A stretch of DNA of 41,043 nucleotides from Escherichia virus TH49: the sequence record MT446417.1; one strand, written 5' to 3'. Below are positions 1-41,043 of this stretch, piece by piece; the stretch's first letter is position 1, and each line of letters begins with the position of its first letter. Below the pieces are notes generated by a model. It was not told the DNA's origin. It did no database searches and saw nothing but the letters and a program-made list of their open reading frames with translations. Position numbers and translations under genes: made by a program.

Positions 1-98
1 AACCATAGGCCACCCCTAACCGAAGGTTAAACCTTAGGTGGTACCGATGGGAAACCTTAGGTGATACTATATGTTGTGGTGAGGGTGACCTGAGGATA
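1..98. repeat. Left direct terminal repeat (DTR), at least 98 bp
   Basis: Positions 1..98 are identical to 40946..41043 by direct reading. T7-like genomes carry direct terminal repeats; the true repeat may be longer if the record was trimmed. Confidence 0.85.
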
Positions 99-210
99 CT
101 ATATGTTGATGTCCCTGTGTCCCTATCTGTTGGTACTCATTAAGTCACACCTTAGGACCTCCTGAGGTAACCACCTGAGGTTAGACCTGAGACCATATAC
201 CTTAGGTTAA
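30..210. repeat. Array of short CCTNAGG repeats (CCTTAGG / CCTGAGG) at the left end
   Basis: At least seven copies (about 32, 55, 89, 150, 161, 174, 200) within 180 bp. Analogous in position to the CCTAAAG repeats next to the T7 terminal repeat. Confidence 0.7.
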
Positions 211-259
211 CCGTGAGTCATCACTATAGGACTATTGGGTAGTCATTGTCAATTCATTC

Positions 260-282
260 TATTAGGGCCCACTATAGGGAGA
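260..282 (+). promoter_or_regulatory. Phage RNAP promoter (phiOL-like), tattagggcccactatagggaga, +1 near 277
   Basis: 22 of 23 match to the internal consensus derived from 13 copies in this window. Confidence 0.8.
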
Positions 283-495
283 CACTTAGAGTATTACTTA
301 GAGACCATAACCAATAAGAACACTATCACTATAGGTCTAACTAAAAGTTTAACTTTAAGTGTTGACATTCAGATTCCGTTATGAGACATTAGCAACCGTT
401 GAGAGACACAACGTCACCAACAACCAGACAATACCACGAGTTATCTGGTTAGACTGAGGGTCTCAAGTAGTCATCAACCGGACATACGAAAATGG

Positions 496-524
496 TTGAC
501 TCAACGGATAACATGAAGTAACAT
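496..524 (+). promoter_or_regulatory. Candidate host sigma70 early promoter (T7 A2-like): TTGACT, 17-bp spacer, TAACAT
   Basis: The sequence ttgactcaacggataacatgaagtaacatgcag resembles the T7 A2/A3 early promoters (TTGACAACATGAAGTAACATGCAG) as I recall them. It lies in the non-coding leader upstream of the early genes. Confidence 0.4.
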
Positions 525-705
525 GCAGTCTCAGTAACACGCAGTACCTAGCAGCACCGCTCTTTAACAATATGGATTAGTCAAGCTGATATGTACACCA
601 TGACAATAGTGTTTAACTAGTGGTTACATTCAGGTCTCTGGCAAGGTACGTCCTGTCACCCTGAGAGTAGCCACACCGATAACCACTAACTGAAGGATAT
701 ACATC

Positions 706-894
706 ATGATTTACACCAAAGAGCCAGCTAACAAGGTATTCGTGTTCGTTACCGCTTATCGTGGCCATGAGTCGCAGGAAGTAAACGAGAAGATGCTCAA
801 GGAGGTGTCATTAGGTGGCACGCTGCAACGAGTGGACGCTCCTAAGGGTGAATGCTATTCAGTCATCAACGGGCAGTACTGGGAGGTGGTGTGA
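706..894 (+). CDS. Hypothetical early protein (62 aa)
   Basis: ATG with an upstream AAGGA ribosome-binding site; first ORF after the leader. Stop overlaps the next start (ATGA). No similarity recognised. Confidence 0.5.
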   Translation: MIYTKEPANKVFVFVTAYRGHESQEVNEKMLKEVSLGGTLQRVDAPKGECYSVINGQYWEVV

Positions 895-1094
895 TGAGTA
901 AGCTACTAGCAATATCCAAAATAACAGGGCAATGCACTGTAACATTACGGGAGTACCCACACGGTGAAATGGGGAGTACCTACATTGTGCGATATGGTAA
1001 GCAGGTAAAACACTGGGTCAACGAAGTACTAGCTCAGGAGGATTATCAATCATGCGTCGCACATCAATCAACTTGCGCTGGGTGGAATGACTAA
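894..1094 (+). CDS. Hypothetical early protein (66 aa)
   Basis: ATG at 894 preceded by GGAGGTGG; translationally coupled to the ORFs on either side. Confidence 0.5.
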   Translation: MSKLLAISKITGQCTVTLREYPHGEMGSTYIVRYGKQVKHWVNEVLAQEDYQSCVAHQSTCAGWND

Positions 1095-1333
1095 TGAAGC
1101 ATTACGGAATCACGCAGCAGAATCTCAAGAGCACTCGCAAGGCCATGAAGGTGGCCCTAATGTGTGTCAACCAGTCACCTGAAGATATGAACGCATGGCA
1201 CGGCTACTACATGGCCCAACTGGCCCAAACTTATCGCACACGCAAGGTAATGTATAATGTCACTCCCTCTCGTAATCATAGCGCTCCTGGGATATTCGCT
1301 CATCCTTATGGTGTTCGTGAAAGACTTTCATAA
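1094..1333 (+). CDS. Gene 0.6-like early protein (79 aa)
   Basis: The N-terminus MKHY... resembles the recalled T7 gp0.6 start (MMKHYVMP...). ATG overlaps the upstream stop. The 3' part overlaps ORF 1257..1463 in another frame. Confidence 0.45.
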   Translation: MKHYGITQQNLKSTRKAMKVALMCVNQSPEDMNAWHGYYMAQLAQTYRTRKVMYNVTPSRNHSAPGIFAHPYGVRERLS

Positions 1334-1463
1334 GGGTCTCAAGGTGCACAAAGCATCATTAAGTTACATGAAGTGGGGCTTCTTGCCTCGCTTTACTGTA
1401 CGGCTACCAAATGGCCGCTTTAAGGCAAACAAAGTGGGGATATTCTATGTCGCAACGCACTAA
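1257..1463 (+). CDS. Hypothetical small membrane protein (68 aa), overlapping the 0.6-like ORF
   Basis: Hydrophobic N-terminal stretch (LPLVIIALLGYSLILMVFV) and an AAGG motif 9 nt upstream. It is in the +1 frame relative to 1094..1333; it may be a separate gene or a frameshift partner. Confidence 0.35.
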   Translation: MSLPLVIIALLGYSLILMVFVKDFHKGLKVHKASLSYMKWGFLPRFTVRLPNGRFKANKVGIFYVATH

Positions 1464-1680
1464 CCTGAAGAAAGCCTTCAAGATTGCACGGATGGTGATG
1501 CCATACGGTGCCGGGGAGAAGCGCACAAAGCGGATACTTGCGGCAAGGGCTGGGAGATTACCAGCTCGGCAGCGCAAATGGGTAATGCAGCAAGTTTATA
1601 CAGAGCTTTACCATCCTGAGCGAATACCAGATGGCTACATACGGTCGCCTATAGGCTGGAAACGAGTAGCAACTAACTAA
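1447..1680 (+). CDS. Hypothetical basic early protein (77 aa)
   Basis: ATG at 1447 preceded by GTGGGGA; Arg/Lys-rich product; last ORF before the kinase gene. Confidence 0.5.
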   Translation: MSQRTNLKKAFKIARMVMPYGAGEKRTKRILAARAGRLPARQRKWVMQQVYTELYHPERIPDGYIRSPIGWKRVATN

Positions 1681-1713
1681 ACCACTAACACACACACTTA
1701 AGGAAACAACCTA

Positions 1714-2730
1714 ATGAACTACTTAGACATGCAAGACCGCTTAGACGTCATCCATCACCTGCCAATCTGTGAACTCGACAAGCGCCAGCCACTGCTGGTA
1801 GCACTCATTGCGGACATTGTGAACGCTGAGACGTCCAACGGTGACGATACGGATAGCGATTGGAGTCTGGAAAGTCAGGACTATTGGCAAACCCTGAAGA
1901 TTAAGGCCAAAGACGCTGGGTTTAACCTACTGGGCAATGGTCACTTCAGCGCAGCGTTTAAGCACGAGCTGCTACCGGGTAAGGTCATTAAGGTTGGCTT
2001 TAAGAAAGAAGACTCAGGGGCCGCCTACGTGGCTTTCTGCCGGATGCATCAAGGCCGGGTAGGGATTCCTAACGTCTATCACGTAGCGCGCCACGCTGGC
2101 TGCTATACGGTGGTATTGGACGAGCTGGAACCATGCAATCGCAGCGGTAACCACTTGCACGACCACTATGCAGACCTCGCGTATTACTTTGTCGAGTGTG
2201 ATTATGCACCTGAGGAGCACCACCAGAAGGACTTACCATTCATTGAGACGTGCCAGATGATTCGGGACTTCTTCTGTGGGATTGCGTCATTCGATATGCA
2301 CAGCGGTAACATCATGTTCACCAAGGACGGTAAGCCAGTGATTACCGACCCGGTGTCATTCTCAGCGGACCGGGACCGCGAGCCTTTCTCGCTGGAACCT
2401 GAGGAGCTACTTGCTGAGATTGAGCAGATAGCGCACGCCAAGATGATTGAACGCTGTAAGCGCAACAAGGCAAAGCGTGACCCGAACGGGGAGATGCGCA
2501 TCGCACGCCGGAAGGCCAATAAGGAACGTCGAGCACGCCGGAAGGCACACGCTCGGTGGCGTGAGGAGCGCGAACGTGAGCGCGAGCAGTATCACGTAGA
2601 CGCCCTAAAGGCAGACCTAGCGAGTATTGAGGTGCGCGTTCTAGCGTGGCAAATGGGACCCGGCCTAGCAATACAGCAGGGCAAGCCATTGCCAATCGAC
2701 AACTACCTTCAGGGTAGACTTATGGGTTAA
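1714..2730 (+). CDS. gp0.7: Serine/threonine protein kinase and host shutoff protein (T7 gp0.7 homolog)
   Basis: 338 aa. Long conserved blocks match the recalled T7 gp0.7 (LPICELDKRQ, GNGHFSAA, VIKVGFKKEDSGAAY, FCRM.QGR.GIPNVY, HAGCYTVVLD, ASFDMHSGNIMF, ITDPVSFS). Arg-rich C-terminus. Confidence 0.92.
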   Translation: MNYLDMQDRLDVIHHLPICELDKRQPLLVALIADIVNAETSNGDDTDSDWSLESQDYWQTLKIKAKDAGFNLLGNGHFSAAFKHELLPGKVIKVGFKKEDSGAAYVAFCRMHQGRVGIPNVYHVARHAGCYTVVLDELEPCNRSGNHLHDHYADLAYYFVECDYAPEEHHQKDLPFIETCQMIRDFFCGIASFDMHSGNIMFTKDGKPVITDPVSFSADRDREPFSLEPEELLAEIEQIAHAKMIERCKRNKAKRDPNGEMRIARRKANKERRARRKAHARWREEREREREQYHVDALKADLASIEVRVLAWQMGPGLAIQQGKPLPIDNYLQGRLMG

Positions 2731-2801
2731 CGAGGTGTATCTTAGGTGTCTCCGAACGGTGAGGCACCAATAGATAAACTTTATTCACAAAGAGGCACAC
2801 A

Positions 2802-5522
2802 ATGAACGCATTAAACATTGCACGTAATGACTTCTCAGAGATTGAACTAGCCGCTATTCCGTACAACATCCTCAGCGAGCACTACGGGGACAAGCTGGCA
2901 CGCGAGCAGTTAGCACTGGAGCATGAAGCGTACGAGCTGGGCGAGCAGCGTTTCCTGAAGATGTTAGAACGTCAGGTGAAAGCTGGTGAGTTCGCTGACA
3001 ACGTGGCCGCTAAACCGCTGGTCTTGACGTTGCACCCACAGTTAACCAAGCGTATTGACGACTGGAAGGAGGAGCAATCAAACGCTCGCGGTAAGAAGCC
3101 TCGCGCATACTACCCGATTAAGCACGGCGTTCCCTCAGAGTTGGCCCTTAGTATGGGCGCTGAGGTGCTCAAGGAGAAGCGCGGAGTGTCCAGTGAGGCA
3201 ATCGCACTGCTCACCATTAAGGTAGTCTTAGGGACGCTCACAGACGCCTCAAAGGCCACCATCCAGCAGGTATCCTCTCAGTTAGGCAAGGCGCTTGAGG
3301 ATGAGGCCCGCTTCGGGCGTATCCGTGAGCAGGAGGCCACCTACTTCAAGAAGAATGTAGCGGACCAGCTGGACAAGCGCGTGGGGCACGTGTACAAGAA
3401 GGCTTTCATGCAGGTTGTTGAGGCCGATATGATAGCCAAAGGGATGCTGGGCGGAGACAACTGGGCGAGCTGGAAGACCGACGAGCAGATGCACGTAGGG
3501 ACAAAGCTGCTGGAGCTGCTCATTGAGGGCACCGGTCTGGTGGAAATGACCAAGAACAAGATGGCCGATGGCTCCGACGATGTGACCAGTATGCAGATGG
3601 TCCAGCTGGCTCCGGCCTTCGTGGAACTCCTGAGCAAACGAGCGGGCGCACTCGCGGGTATCAGCCCGATGCACCAGCCGTGCGTAGTCCCTCCGAAACC
3701 TTGGGTCGAAACCGTAGGTGGTGGCTACTGGTCAGTCGGTCGTCGACCGCTGGCACTGGTTCGTACCCACTCCAAGAAGGCGCTTCGCCGCTATACTGAC
3801 GTGCACATGCCTGAGGTATACAAGGCGGTAAACCTCGCGCAAAACACACCGTGGAAGGTGAACAAGAAGGTGCTGGCGGTAGTCAACGAGATTATCAACT
3901 GGAAGCACTGCCCGGTTGCTGACGTCCCAGCGATTGAACGCGAAGAGTTACCACCACGCCCGGACGATATCGACACCAACGAGGTGGCACGTAAGGCGTG
4001 GCGTAAGGAGGCCGCAGCGGTCTACCGTAAGGACAAGGCCCGCCAGTCCCGCCGATTGTCGATGGAGTTCATGGTCGCACAGGCCAACAAGTTCGCTAAC
4101 CACAAGGCCATCTGGTTCCCGTACAACATGGACTGGCGCGGGCGTGTGTACGCTGTGAGCATGTTCAACCCACAGGGTAACGACATGACCAAGGGTATGC
4201 TGACGCTGGCCAAAGGTAAGCCAATCGGTCTCGATGGGTTTTACTGGCTGAAGATTCACGGTGCAAACTGTGCAGGCGTCGACAAGGTTCCCTTCCCTGA
4301 GCGCATCAAGTTCATCGAAGAGAACGAGGGCAACATTCTGGCGAGCGCAGCGGACCCACTGAATAACACTTGGTGGACTCAGCAGGATTCGCCGTTCTGT
4401 TTCTTAGCGTTCTGCTTTGAGTATGCAGGCGTTAAGCACCACGGACTGAATTACAACTGCTCACTACCGCTGGCATTCGATGGGTCATGCTCTGGGATTC
4501 AGCACTTCAGCGCGATGCTCCGCGATTCCATCGGTGGTCGTGCGGTTAACCTGCTGCCTTCTGATACCGTGCAGGATATCTACAAGATTGTGGCCGACAA
4601 GGTTAACGAGGTACTCCACCAGCACGCTATCAACGGGTCTCAGACGGTGGTCGAGCAGATTGCTGACAAAGAGACTGGCGAGTTTCACGAGAAGGTAACT
4701 CTGGGTGAGTCCGTACTGGCTGCGCAGTGGTTGCAGTATGGAGTGACCCGCAAGGTCACTAAGCGTTCGGTAATGACGTTGGCGTACGGTTCCAAAGAGT
4801 TCGGCTTCCGCCAGCAAGTTCTGGAAGATACCATTCAGCCTGCTATTGACAACGGCGAGGGCCTGATGTTTACGCACCCTAACCAAGCGGCTGGCTACAT
4901 GGCTAAGCTGATTTGGGACGCTGTGACCGTGACCGTAGTGGCCGCTGTCGAGGCAATGAACTGGCTGAAGTCTGCCGCTAAGCTGCTGGCTGCTGAAGTC
5001 AAGGACAAGAAGACCAAAGAGGTGCTGCGTAAGCGCTGCGCAATCCACTGGGTAACACCAGACGGCTTCCCGGTGTGGCAAGAGTACCGCAAGCAGAACC
5101 AAGCCCGCCTGAAGCTGGTCTTCCTCGGTCAGGCCAACGTCAAGATGACGTACAACACCGGGAAGGACTCCGAGATTGACGCGCACAAGCAGGAATCTGG
5201 CATCGCTCCCAACTTTGTACACTCACAGGATGGCAGCCACCTGCGCATGACCGTAGTGCACGCCAACGAGGTCTACGGGATTGACTCCTTCGCACTCATT
5301 CACGACTCCTTCGGGACCATTCCGGCTGACGCTGGGAATCTCTTTAAGGCAGTCCGCGAGACGATGGTCAAGACCTATGAGGACAACGATGTAATCGCCG
5401 ACTTCTACGACCAGTTCGCTGACCAGCTGCACGAGTCTCAACTGGACAAGATGCCAGCGGTCCCGGCCAAAGGTGACCTGAATCTGCGCGATATCTTAGA
5501 GTCTGACTTCGCGTTCGCATAA
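2802..5522 (+). CDS. gp1: Single-subunit DNA-dependent RNA polymerase (T7/T3 gp1 family)
   Basis: 906 aa, near-collinear with the recalled T7/T3 RNAP (AGISPMHQPCVVPPKPW, RRPLALVRTHSKK, FPYNMDWRGRVYAV, FDGSCSGIQHFSAML, MTLAYGSKEFGFRQQ, IHDSFGT, C-terminal ESDFAFA). Confidence 0.98.
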   Translation: MNALNIARNDFSEIELAAIPYNILSEHYGDKLAREQLALEHEAYELGEQRFLKMLERQVKAGEFADNVAAKPLVLTLHPQLTKRIDDWKEEQSNARGKKPRAYYPIKHGVPSELALSMGAEVLKEKRGVSSEAIALLTIKVVLGTLTDASKATIQQVSSQLGKALEDEARFGRIREQEATYFKKNVADQLDKRVGHVYKKAFMQVVEADMIAKGMLGGDNWASWKTDEQMHVGTKLLELLIEGTGLVEMTKNKMADGSDDVTSMQMVQLAPAFVELLSKRAGALAGISPMHQPCVVPPKPWVETVGGGYWSVGRRPLALVRTHSKKALRRYTDVHMPEVYKAVNLAQNTPWKVNKKVLAVVNEIINWKHCPVADVPAIEREELPPRPDDIDTNEVARKAWRKEAAAVYRKDKARQSRRLSMEFMVAQANKFANHKAIWFPYNMDWRGRVYAVSMFNPQGNDMTKGMLTLAKGKPIGLDGFYWLKIHGANCAGVDKVPFPERIKFIEENEGNILASAADPLNNTWWTQQDSPFCFLAFCFEYAGVKHHGLNYNCSLPLAFDGSCSGIQHFSAMLRDSIGGRAVNLLPSDTVQDIYKIVADKVNEVLHQHAINGSQTVVEQIADKETGEFHEKVTLGESVLAAQWLQYGVTRKVTKRSVMTLAYGSKEFGFRQQVLEDTIQPAIDNGEGLMFTHPNQAAGYMAKLIWDAVTVTVVAAVEAMNWLKSAAKLLAAEVKDKKTKEVLRKRCAIHWVTPDGFPVWQEYRKQNQARLKLVFLGQANVKMTYNTGKDSEIDAHKQESGIAPNFVHSQDGSHLRMTVVHANEVYGIDSFALIHDSFGTIPADAGNLFKAVRETMVKTYEDNDVIADFYDQFADQLHESQLDKMPAVPAKGDLNLRDILESDFAFA

Positions 5523-40945: not shown

Positions 40946-41043
40946 AACCATAGGCCACCCCTAACCGAAGGTTAAACCTTAGGTGGTACCGATGGGAAAC
41001 CTTAGGTGATACTATATGTTGTGGTGAGGGTGACCTGAGGATA
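40946..41043. repeat. Right direct terminal repeat (DTR), at least 98 bp
   Basis: Identical to 1..98 by direct reading. Confidence 0.85.

What the first reader, a model, noticed from the sequence alone, without database searches (positions are those of the whole stretch)
706..1680. Early anti-defence slot holds five small overlapping ORFs and no recognisable Ocr or SAM hydrolase
In T7-like phages the first genes injected sit between the host-promoter leader and the kinase gene and encode anti-restriction or anti-host proteins (Ocr in T7, SAM hydrolase in T3). Here that slot holds five short ORFs (62, 66, 79, 68 and 77 aa) with ATGA/TAATG coupling. None is strongly acidic like Ocr or long enough to be a SAM hydrolase. 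One starts MKHY like T7 gp0.6, one has a transmembrane helix, and one is strongly basic. They are the most likely place for undescribed host-takeover or anti-defence functions.
Basis: partly seen in the sequence, partly recalled or inferred. Interest (0 to 1): 0.6.

Follow-up and report, generated by a model that had tools for sequence, protein, structure and literature searches.

The report
T7-like early genes, broken SAM lyase
The five small genes are the usual early gene set of a Klebsiella-type T7-like phage, and the first is the leftover of a known anti-restriction enzyme gene (SAM lyase) that lost its middle, so the region is ordinary rather than a store of new anti-defence genes.

Summary
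All sit in families under purifying selection, so they are real genes.

- **Source:** the window is Escherichia virus TH50, a Przondovirus (K11/KP32 group).
- **ORF1:** a recognisable remnant of the T3-type SAM lyase gene 0.3. A 279-bp in-frame deletion between 8-11-bp direct repeats removed residues 33-125, including the catalytic residues.
- **ORF3:** belongs to the gp0.4 family (T7 gp0.4 inhibits FtsZ), not gp0.6. The shared MKHY is coincidence.
- **ORF4:** the T3 gp0.6 / K11 gp0.6A membrane protein.
- **ORF5:** a longer relative of T3 gp0.65.
- **ORF2:** the only one without a named relative. It belongs to a conserved, sporadically distributed small-protein family (phrog_6500) found in early regions of many T7-like phages; its function is unknown.

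No intact Ocr or SAM lyase exists anywhere in the genome. Related phages carry one or the other at this position, and several show independent early-region deletions.

Verdict: a canonical early block containing a spontaneous gene 0.3 deletion allele. Low novelty. ORF2, ORF4 and ORF5 remain reasonable but unspecific candidates for functional screens.

The parts
607..688 (+). Leader hairpin just upstream of the first gene. It sits where T3 has its annotated R0.3 RNase III site. Context only.
   Evidence: RNA fold -30.6 kcal/mol, z = -1.98 against shuffles. T3 annotation shows stem-loop R0.3 directly before gene 0.3. No Rfam match. The assignment rests on position only.
706..894 (+). ORF1, 62 aa. 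In-frame internal-deletion remnant of gene 0.3 (T3-type S-adenosylmethionine lyase). It keeps residues 1-32 and 126-155 of the 155-aa protein.
   Evidence: PF23780 29.2 bits in two stretches; phrog_2226 1.5e-11. Alignment to the intact genes of phi1_146017 and K11. The intact protein hits the T3 SAM lyase structures 7OCK/8BB1 at 6e-26.
798..813 (+). Deletion junction (between 805 and 806, CTCAAG|GAGGTG) inside the retained copy of a short direct repeat.
   Evidence: Thirty intact 155-aa relatives carry in-frame repeats: GATGCTCAAGG at codons 30-33 and xxGCTCAA(A/G)GAGG at codons 123-126. The repeat is 8 bp exact in L019 and 10-11 bp in L008, L014, L028, L032 and L048. The junction is found only in TH50 among 50,697 phage records and not in IMG/VR.
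894..1094 (+). ORF2, 66 aa. Member of the uncharacterised early-gene family phrog_6500. Predicted as a four-stranded sheet plus a C-terminal helix, with a conserved C-x2-H-x3-C on the helix.
1094..1333 (+). ORF3, 79 aa. gp0.4-family protein: a 60-aa core homologous to K11 gp0.4 and T7 gp0.4, plus a 19-aa tail that reads through the start of ORF4.
   Evidence: phrog_5058 2.5e-24. 51% identity to K11 gp0.4. T7 gp0.4 hits phrog_5058 at 9e-5 and K11 gp0.4 hits T7's phrog_7202 at 2e-4. hhalign E 0.002. The tail travels with one ORF4 allele.
1257..1463 (+). ORF4, 68 aa. T3 gp0.6 / K11 gp0.6A family: single N-terminal transmembrane helix and a basic, conserved C-terminal part.
   Evidence: phrog_2385 3e-27. 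84% identity to K11 gp0.6A and 66% to T3 gp0.6. Hydrophobic stretch 3-21. Present in nearly all Przondovirus and T3-like loci.
1447..1680 (+). ORF5, 77 aa. Basic protein of family phrog_23914, a longer relative of T3 gp0.65.
   Evidence: phrog_23914 2.6e-44, phrog_10380 1.5e-6. T3 gp0.65 hits phrog_23914 at 8e-6. hhalign probability 99.7%. AF2 gives three helices plus a hairpin, pLDDT 74. The profile and the RBS favour the ATG at 1447 over 1411.
1714..2730 (+). gp0.7-type serine/threonine kinase. Right-hand boundary of the slot (context).
   Evidence: phrog_2828 7.6e-171.

Best explanation
Window 706-1680 is the standard class I (pre-early) gene block of a K11/KP32-like phage, genus Przondovirus, here Escherichia virus TH50. 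By analogy with T7, T3 and K11 (inferred), host RNA polymerase transcribes it from the leader promoters as the DNA enters. The tightly packed or overlapping reading frames suggest coupled translation (inferred).

Gene order is 0.3 (SAM lyase), an accessory gene (phrog_6500), 0.4, 0.6 and a 0.65-like gene, followed by the 0.7 kinase.

The one unusual point is that gene 0.3 is broken. Recombination or replication slippage between two in-frame 8-11-bp direct repeats, which encode (M/T)LK at codons 30-32 and 123-125, removed 279 bp. What remains is a 62-aa ORF lacking the catalytic residues (equivalents of T3 E68, Q94, D95) and the MetK-contact loop. The phage therefore most likely makes no active SAM lyase. 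Because it also has no Ocr, it should be sensitive to SAM-dependent type I restriction and BREX unless already modified.

Inferred roles of the other genes:
- ORF3 most likely inhibits FtsZ, as T7 gp0.4 does.
- ORF4 is a small inner-membrane protein.
- ORF5 is a small basic helical protein.
- ORF2 is a small sheet-plus-helix protein.

These last three are conserved early accessory proteins whose targets are unknown.
For: **Identity.** The window is 100% identical to MT446418, classified as Przondovirus.

**ORF1.**
- Pfam and PHROG matches come in two stretches.
- The DNA alignment shows one clean 279-bp gap relative to intact genes.
- Direct repeats sit at both break points in 30 intact relatives.
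- The intact protein matches the T3 SAM lyase structure at 6e-26.
- T3 catalytic and MetK-loop residues (bioRxiv 10.1101/2023.02.27.530186) map into the deleted residues 33-125.
- The retained parts are 100% and 91% identical to the intact protein of phi1_146017, so the loss is recent.

**Family assignment of ORF2-ORF5:**

**Comparison across loci.** In 80 kinase-anchored loci the first position holds SAM lyase or an Ocr-like gene. gp0.4 and gp0.6 are nearly universal. ORF2 and ORF5 are variable cassettes.

**Selection.** All show purifying selection.

**Independent losses.** Early-region deletions occur in L036, L045 and L082, a frameshifted SAM lyase in K80PH1317b, and a gp0.4-ORF5 fusion in P0060. 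Such losses therefore recur. This fits the non-essential nature of T7 class I genes and the classic repeat-mediated T7 early-region deletions (established knowledge: Studier and co-workers, 1979).
Against: - No read-level data were available, so the deletion has not been confirmed independently of the assembly. The GenBank record is flagged UNVERIFIED.
- The link between ORF3 and T7 gp0.4 is weak at sequence level (hhalign probability 13%, E 0.002). ORF3 also has a 13-aa insertion, so FtsZ inhibition is inference.
- No function is shown for ORF2, ORF4 or ORF5. Structure searches gave only generic fold matches.
- The remnant is in frame and keeps the N-terminal residues (I2, T4, K5) that contact MetK in T3 SAM lyase, so a residual role is not excluded.
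Confidence: 0.85

Rival explanations
1. One reading: the slot holds five undescribed small proteins unrelated to the T7/T3 0.3-0.6 genes, which replace Ocr or SAM lyase with new anti-defence functions.
For: - No intact Ocr or SAM lyase is present.
- ORF2, ORF4 and ORF5 have no Pfam, NCBIfam or PDB match.
- Remote relatives of ORF2 also lie in early regions of other RNA-polymerase-encoding phages.
Against: - ORF1 is a SAM lyase remnant.
- ORF3, ORF4 and ORF5 are members or relatives of gp0.4, gp0.6 and gp0.65.
- The same genes sit beside an intact SAM lyase or Ocr in relatives, so they accompany those proteins rather than replace them.
Confidence: 0.07
2. The 279-bp gap is an assembly or propagation artefact, and the phage in nature has an intact SAM lyase gene.
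For: - The record is flagged UNVERIFIED and unannotated.
- The junction occurs in no other phage record or IMG/VR contig.
- The phage was plaque-purified three times and grown in liquid culture before sequencing (PMC7498436), which gives time for a spontaneous deletion to take over.
Against: - 2 x 250-bp reads at about 50x coverage should not collapse an 8-11-bp repeat.
- The window's length equals that published for the sibling isolate TH49 (41,043 bp). The TH50 record is the same sequence with 735 extra bases of end redundancy. This points to two assemblies with the same structure, although that is inferred from length only.
- A deletion that arose during propagation would still be a real genotype.
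Confidence: 0.06
3. The in-frame remnant was selected rather than being neutral debris. Either losing active SAM lyase escapes a host defence or toxicity triggered by that enzyme in E. coli PS40, or the 62-aa product retains a MetK-binding or regulatory role.
For: - The deletion is in frame and preserves the start, the RBS and the TGATG junction with ORF2.
- N-terminal residues I2, T4 and K5, which contact MetK in T3, are retained.
- Other T7 early proteins are known triggers that phages lose to escape immunity, for example gp0.4 and CapRel (PMC13423816).
- The host is E. coli, not the usual Klebsiella.
Against: - One deletion in three is in frame by chance, and these repeats are in frame with each other.
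- The MetK-contact loop and the core of the fold are gone.
- N-terminal mutants of T3 SAM lyase were already poorly folded.
- No defence system sensing SAM lyase was found in the papers read.
Confidence: 0.07

Closest known systems
T3 gp0.3 S-adenosylmethionine lyase (SAMase; Pfam PF23780; PDB 7OCK/8BB1) and its Przondovirus orthologues (K11 gp0.3)
   Same: ORF1 occupies the same first position after the leader. It has the same N-terminal 32 and C-terminal 30 residues: 84-100% identity to K11 and phi1_146017, and 36% to T3 over the N-terminal part.
   Different: Residues 33-125 are missing, including equivalents of the catalytic E68, Q94 and D95 and the MetK-contact loop Q103/T104. It is a deletion allele, not a functional member.
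Spontaneous early-region deletion mutants of T7 (gene 0.3-0.7 deletions between short direct repeats; Studier et al. 1979, from my own knowledge)
   Same: The break points lie in short direct repeats, a non-essential class I gene is affected, and the phage remains viable.
   Different: This one was found in an environmental isolate of a Klebsiella-type phage grown on E. coli. It is confined to one gene and is in frame.
T7 gp0.4 (FtsZ inhibitor) / K11 gp0.4
   Same: ORF3 lies in the stretch between gene 0.3 and gene 0.6 where gp0.4 sits, although ORF2 is inserted between 0.3 and ORF3 here. It shares the YG(I/L)TQ start and the MAQLxxxY helix motif, which includes the equivalent of T7 L35. PHROG cross-hits are reciprocal.
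   Different: It has a 60-aa core with a 13-aa insertion between the two helices, plus a 19-aa tail caused by the ORF4 allele. It is basic. FtsZ binding is untested.
T3 gp0.6 / K11 gp0.6A
   Same: ORF4 is full-length, 66-84% identical, has the same N-terminal membrane helix and the same position.
   Different: The N-terminal helix is a divergent allele, shared with L014, L025, L043, L048, L053 and L054. It is not related to T7 gp0.6A beyond the last 13 residues (hhalign probability 2.6%).
T3 gp0.65
   Same: The N-terminal 55 residues of ORF5 align at about 40% identity (hhalign probability 99.7%). It holds the same position just before the kinase.
   Different: ORF5 is 22 residues longer, with a predicted C-terminal beta-hairpin. 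Przondoviruses carry this allele, the T3-type allele, or neither.
T7 Ocr (gp0.3 DNA mimic) and T7 gp0.6A (MreB inhibitor)
   Same: Same genomic slot. ORF3 shares MKHY with gp0.6A.
   Different: No sequence similarity beyond that. No strongly acidic protein is present. Neither family is represented in this window.

Membership tests
S-adenosylmethionine lyase (PF23780, T3 gp0.3) | Significant match to the family profile | tested here: met
   ORF1 scores 29.2 bits against a 28-bit gathering score, in two stretches. phrog_2226 gives 1.5e-11.
S-adenosylmethionine lyase (PF23780, T3 gp0.3) | Complete domain of about 150 aa | tested here: not met
   ORF1 is 62 aa. Residues 33-125 of the 155-aa orthologue are absent.
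S-adenosylmethionine lyase (PF23780, T3 gp0.3) | Catalytic residues (T3 E68, Q94, D95) | tested here: not met
   They are conserved in the intact Przondovirus protein as E68, Q93 and D94 (alignment). All lie in the deleted segment.
S-adenosylmethionine lyase (PF23780, T3 gp0.3) | SAM cleavage or anti-restriction activity | not testable with these tools
   Needs an enzyme assay or plating on EcoKI/BREX hosts.
Ocr (T7 gp0.3 DNA mimic) | Sequence similarity and a strongly acidic protein of about 115 aa | tested here: not met
   No tblastn hit for T7 Ocr or the Przondovirus Ocr-like protein anywhere in the window. The lowest pI in the slot is 5.7.
gp0.4 family (T7 gp0.4 FtsZ inhibitor; K11 gp0.4; phrog_5058/7202) | Sequence homology to gp0.4 proteins | tested here: met
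   ORF3 hits phrog_5058 at 2.5e-24 and is 51% identical to K11 gp0.4. The link to T7 gp0.4 is weaker but reciprocal: 9e-5 and 2e-4, hhalign E 0.002.
gp0.4 family (T7 gp0.4 FtsZ inhibitor; K11 gp0.4; phrog_5058/7202) | FtsZ-contact helix residues (T7 W28, L35; helix 35-46) | tested here: inconclusive
   The MAQL motif with the L35 equivalent (L43) is conserved. A Trp (W35) is present, but the W-to-L spacing is one residue longer than in T7 and a 13-aa insertion lies upstream.
gp0.4 family (T7 gp0.4 FtsZ inhibitor; K11 gp0.4; phrog_5058/7202) | Binds FtsZ and blocks division | not testable with these tools
   Needs expression and microscopy, or a pull-down.
T7 gp0.6A (MreB inhibitor) | Sequence homology | tested here: not met
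   ORF3 shares only MKHY. ORF4 shares only its last 13 residues, hhalign probability 2.6%.
T3 gp0.6 / K11 gp0.6A (phrog_2385) | Full-length homology, N-terminal membrane helix, position before the gp0.65 gene or the kinase | tested here: met
   phrog_2385 3e-27; 84% and 66% identity; hydrophobic stretch 3-21.
T3 gp0.65 (phrog_10380) and sister family phrog_23914 | Homology over the roughly 55-aa core and position directly before the kinase | tested here: met
   hhalign probability 99.7%, E 2e-25. Reciprocal PHROG hits near 1e-6.
AP2 / integrase arm-binding DNA-binding fold (considered for ORF2) | Three- or four-stranded sheet packed on a helix, with a basic DNA-binding face | tested here: inconclusive

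The most novel reading that the evidence does not exclude
ORF2 may be an undescribed host-takeover or counter-defence effector. Its family (phrog_6500 and remote relatives) comprises proteins of about 65 aa with a sheet-plus-helix fold and a conserved C-x2-H-x3-C helix face.

Features that fit accessory counter-defence genes:
- Strong purifying selection: 80-90% amino-acid identity across genera whose kinases are only about 50% identical.
- Patchy presence among closely related phages.
- Consistent location in the pre-early region of distant RNA-polymerase-encoding phages.

Its target is unknown.
Probability: 0.3. Interest if true: 0.5.

Novelty: already known. Interest (0 to 1): 0.2.

Why it matters
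Mostly as a correction. The apparent absence of an anti-restriction gene is a recent gene-0.3 deletion, not a new strategy, and the neighbouring ORFs are the usual gp0.4, gp0.6 and gp0.65 set.

Practical value is modest:
- TH50 is a natural Przondovirus lacking both SAM lyase and Ocr, and it grows on E. coli. It could serve as a control for studying type I restriction or BREX against this phage group.
- The comparison across 80 loci shows that SAM lyase and Ocr alternate at the first position, and that ORF2 and ORF5 behave as exchangeable cassettes.
- ORF2, ORF4 and ORF5 are widespread, conserved and uncharacterised, so they are fair targets for toxicity or anti-defence screens. Nothing here singles them out beyond that.

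Tried and rejected
- **Family libraries.** Pfam, NCBIfam and PDB sequence searches of ORF2-ORF5 found no family.
- **RNA families.** Rfam on 1-3000 found no match.
- **Promoters and terminators.** The consensus scan was not above shuffled expectation.
- **ORF3 as T7 gp0.6.** Rejected, because only MKHY is shared.
- **ORF4 related to T7 gp0.6A or gp0.5.** Not supported.
- **ORF5 and gp0.4 as paralogues through the shared AMAYGA motif.** hhalign was not significant, although one natural fusion (P0060) joins the two genes at that motif.
- **Recent horizontal transfer of ORF2.** Rejected. Nucleotide identity to the T7- and T3-like copies is only 75-77%, so this is conservation, not recent transfer.
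- **The 19-aa tail of ORF3 as a functional extension.** Not supported. It simply travels with one ORF4 allele.
- **Literature.** Searches for gp0.6 and gp0.65 functions and for Klebsiella phage early-gene screens found nothing relevant. Searches failed on term format.
- **PF26807.** This precomputed family on ORF3 relatives could not be named, because it is not in the local Pfam copy.
Full report
**What is in the sequence.** They lie between a leader region and a gp0.7-type kinase (1714-2730, phrog_2828 at 7.6e-171) and the phage RNA polymerase (2802-5522). ORF1/ORF2 share TGATG and ORF2/ORF3 share TAATG. ORF3/ORF4 overlap by 77 nt and ORF4/ORF5 by 17 nt. Each start has a Shine-Dalgarno-like motif. 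pI values are 5.7, 6.8, 10.1, 10.6 and 11.4, against 4.05 for T7 Ocr. ORF4 has one hydrophobic helix (residues 3-21) and ORF5 has net charge +14. The minus-strand ORFs in the interval are short, and no evidence was sought for them.

**Where the window comes from.** It is 100% identical to MT446418, 'UNVERIFIED: Escherichia virus TH50', genus Przondovirus (the K11/KP32 group). The record is the same sequence circularly permuted, with 735 extra bases of end redundancy. TH50 and a sibling, TH49, were isolated from Renton (Washington) sewage on E. coli strain PS40 (PMC7498436). TH49's published size of 41,043 bp equals the window length. About 377 phage records, almost all Klebsiella phages, match the region at 80-95% identity.

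**ORF1 is the remnant of the SAM lyase gene.**
- ORF1 matches Pfam PF23780 (S-AdoMet_lyase) above the gathering score and phrog_2226 at 1.5e-11. In each case its N-terminal half matches the start of the profile and its C-terminal half matches the end.
- Alignment with phi1_146017 shows a single clean 279-bp gap. The neighbour has a 155-aa gene, and the window keeps codons 1-32 and 126-155 in frame.
- The intact Przondovirus protein matches the solved T3 SAM lyase (7OCK/8BB1) at 6e-26.
- The T3 catalytic residues E68, Q94 and D95 and the MetK-contact loop Q103/T104 (bioRxiv 10.1101/2023.02.27.530186) align to residues inside the deleted segment. Only the N-terminal MetK-contact residues I2, T4 and K5 survive.
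- In 30 intact relatives both break points sit in in-frame direct repeats: GATGCTCAAGG at codons 30-33 and xxGCTCAA(A/G)GAGG at codons 123-126. The repeat is 8 bp exact in L019, whose right side is identical to the window, and 10-11 bp in five other loci.
- This is the signature of repeat-mediated deletion, long known for the T7 early region (established knowledge: Studier and co-workers, 1979).
- The junction is found in no other record of 50,697 phage genomes and not in IMG/VR.
- The retained parts are 100% and 91% identical to the intact protein of phi1_146017, so the event is recent.
- No Ocr-like gene exists elsewhere in the window.

**ORF3 is a gp0.4-family protein, not gp0.6.**
- It hits phrog_5058 at 2.5e-24 and is 51% identical to K11 gp0.4.
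- T7 gp0.4 hits phrog_5058 at 9e-5, and K11 gp0.4 hits T7's phrog_7202 at 2e-4.
- phmmer families seeded with each protein overlap, and hhalign gives E 0.002 with a low probability of 13% for these very short profiles.
- One T7-like locus (L072) carries a K11-type 0.4 at the T7 0.4 position.
- The shared features are the N-terminal YG(I/L)TQ and the MAQLxxxY helix. That helix contains the equivalent of T7 L35, an FtsZ-interface residue (PMC13423816).
- ORF3 has a 13-aa insertion between the helices.
- Its last 19 residues read through the start of ORF4 and occur only together with one ORF4 allele, so they are probably a by-product.
- The MKHY shared with T7 gp0.6A is the only similarity to that protein.

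**ORF4 and ORF5.** ORF4 is 84% identical to K11 gp0.6A and 66% to T3 gp0.6, in the same PHROG. It is unrelated to T7 gp0.5, and it resembles T7 gp0.6A only in its last 13 residues. ORF5 (phrog_23914) is related to T3 gp0.65: reciprocal PHROG hits near 1e-6 and hhalign probability 99.7%. It is 22 residues longer. Its AF2 model has three helices and a hairpin at pLDDT 74, and matches only generic helical bundles. No paper in the searchable library assigns a function to T3 gp0.6 or gp0.65.

**ORF2 is the only product without a named relative.**
- Its close family is small and very conserved: 18 clusters, all at least 65% identical and all 'hypothetical'.
- An exhaustive profile search found about 35 remote relatives of 60-88 aa.
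- These share the signature GQxxVxL...YxVxYG...A..EY..C..H...CAG. They have no Pfam family and fall only in PHROGs of unknown function.
- The AF2 model (pLDDT 86) is a four-stranded sheet with a C-terminal helix.
- ORF2 is present in only 5 of about 50 Przondovirus loci, yet it also occurs in T7-like and T3-like phages at 77-84% amino-acid identity. Those phages' kinases are only about 50% identical to the window's.
- Nucleotide identity there is 75-77% and ends at the ORF boundaries. This indicates strong conservation, not recent transfer.
- Remote members also lie among small ORFs upstream of the RNA polymerase gene in other phage contigs. In T3-like phages ORF2 directly follows SAM lyase.

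**The slot across relatives.**
- In 80 kinase-anchored IMG/VR loci the first gene is either SAM lyase or an Ocr-like protein; two loci have both.
- gp0.4 and gp0.6 are nearly universal in Przondovirus.
- The last position holds the ORF5 allele, the T3 gp0.65 allele, or nothing.
- Independent losses are common. L036, L045 and L082 lack 0.3 and parts of neighbouring genes. K80PH1317b has a frameshifted SAM lyase. P0060 is a gp0.4-ORF5 fusion.
- dN/dS of the window against relatives is 0.04-0.13 for all five ORFs and 0.15 for the kinase. This came from my own Nei-Gojobori script on ungapped alignments.

**How it most likely works.** Shown: the gene content, the deletion and its repeat-flanked break points, and the loss of catalytic residues. 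Inferred from the T7/T3 paradigm:
- The block is transcribed by host RNA polymerase during DNA entry and translated as a coupled series.
- ORF3 inhibits FtsZ.
- The phage makes no active SAM lyase. It should therefore be restricted by SAM-dependent type I and BREX systems unless its DNA is already modified.
- ORF2, ORF4 and ORF5 act on unknown host targets.

**Verdict.** This is a canonical Przondovirus early block carrying a spontaneous gene 0.3 deletion allele. Novelty is low. The most interesting residue is the uncharacterised ORF2 family.

Noticed in passing
L036, L045, L082 (IMG/VR loci); L002 (K80PH1317b) 904-1370; protein P0060: Independent natural losses in the same early region. Three loci lack gene 0.3 plus parts of 0.4 or 0.6. 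One phage has a frameshifted SAM lyase. One protein is a fusion of the gp0.4 N-terminus to the ORF5 C-terminus at a shared AMAYGA motif.
   Followed up: partly
L008-L087 (matrix); L063 and L064: SAM lyase and Ocr-like genes alternate at the first early position among closely related Przondoviruses (roughly 60% against 35%). Two T3/T7-like loci carry both.
   Followed up: partly
L091 6812-7039 (minus strand): A contig carrying a remote ORF2-family member also encodes a 75-aa protein with an Acb2/Tad1 hairpin Pfam hit (PF24729). It lies close by, just upstream of the phage RNA polymerase gene.
   Followed up: no
window 1-98 and 40946-41043; L007 (MT446418) 1-833 and 40946-41778: The window's first 98 bases repeat at its end. 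The TH50 GenBank record carries 833 bases of redundancy between its two ends and is circularly permuted relative to the window. The window length equals the published size of sibling phage TH49.
   Followed up: partly
window 1240-1325: This segment encodes the ORF4 membrane helix and is a divergent allele relative to K11 and phi1_146017. It is 12 nt longer and much less similar to those two phages than the flanking sequence. It is shared with six IMG/VR loci. As a side effect it removes the stop codon that normally ends gp0.4 at 60 aa.
   Followed up: yes
L072 1842-2241: A T7-like phage (Ocr, gp0.5 and gp0.6A of T7 type) carries a K11-type gp0.4 (77% identity) followed by ORF2. This shows cassette exchange of early genes between genera.
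   Followed up: no
proteins P0068-P0081 (ORF3 relatives), P0060: The protein database assigns Pfam PF26807.1 to ORF3 relatives. The local Pfam copy returned no hit for ORF3, so the family name could not be checked.
   Followed up: no
window 262-284 and 362-367, 496-524: The leader holds a K11-type phage promoter-like sequence (ATTAGGGCCCACTATAGGGAGA) and TTGACA/TTGACT sigma-70-like elements. These sit where K11 and T7 have phiOL and the A promoters. Only one (496-524) was picked up by the consensus scan.
   Followed up: partly
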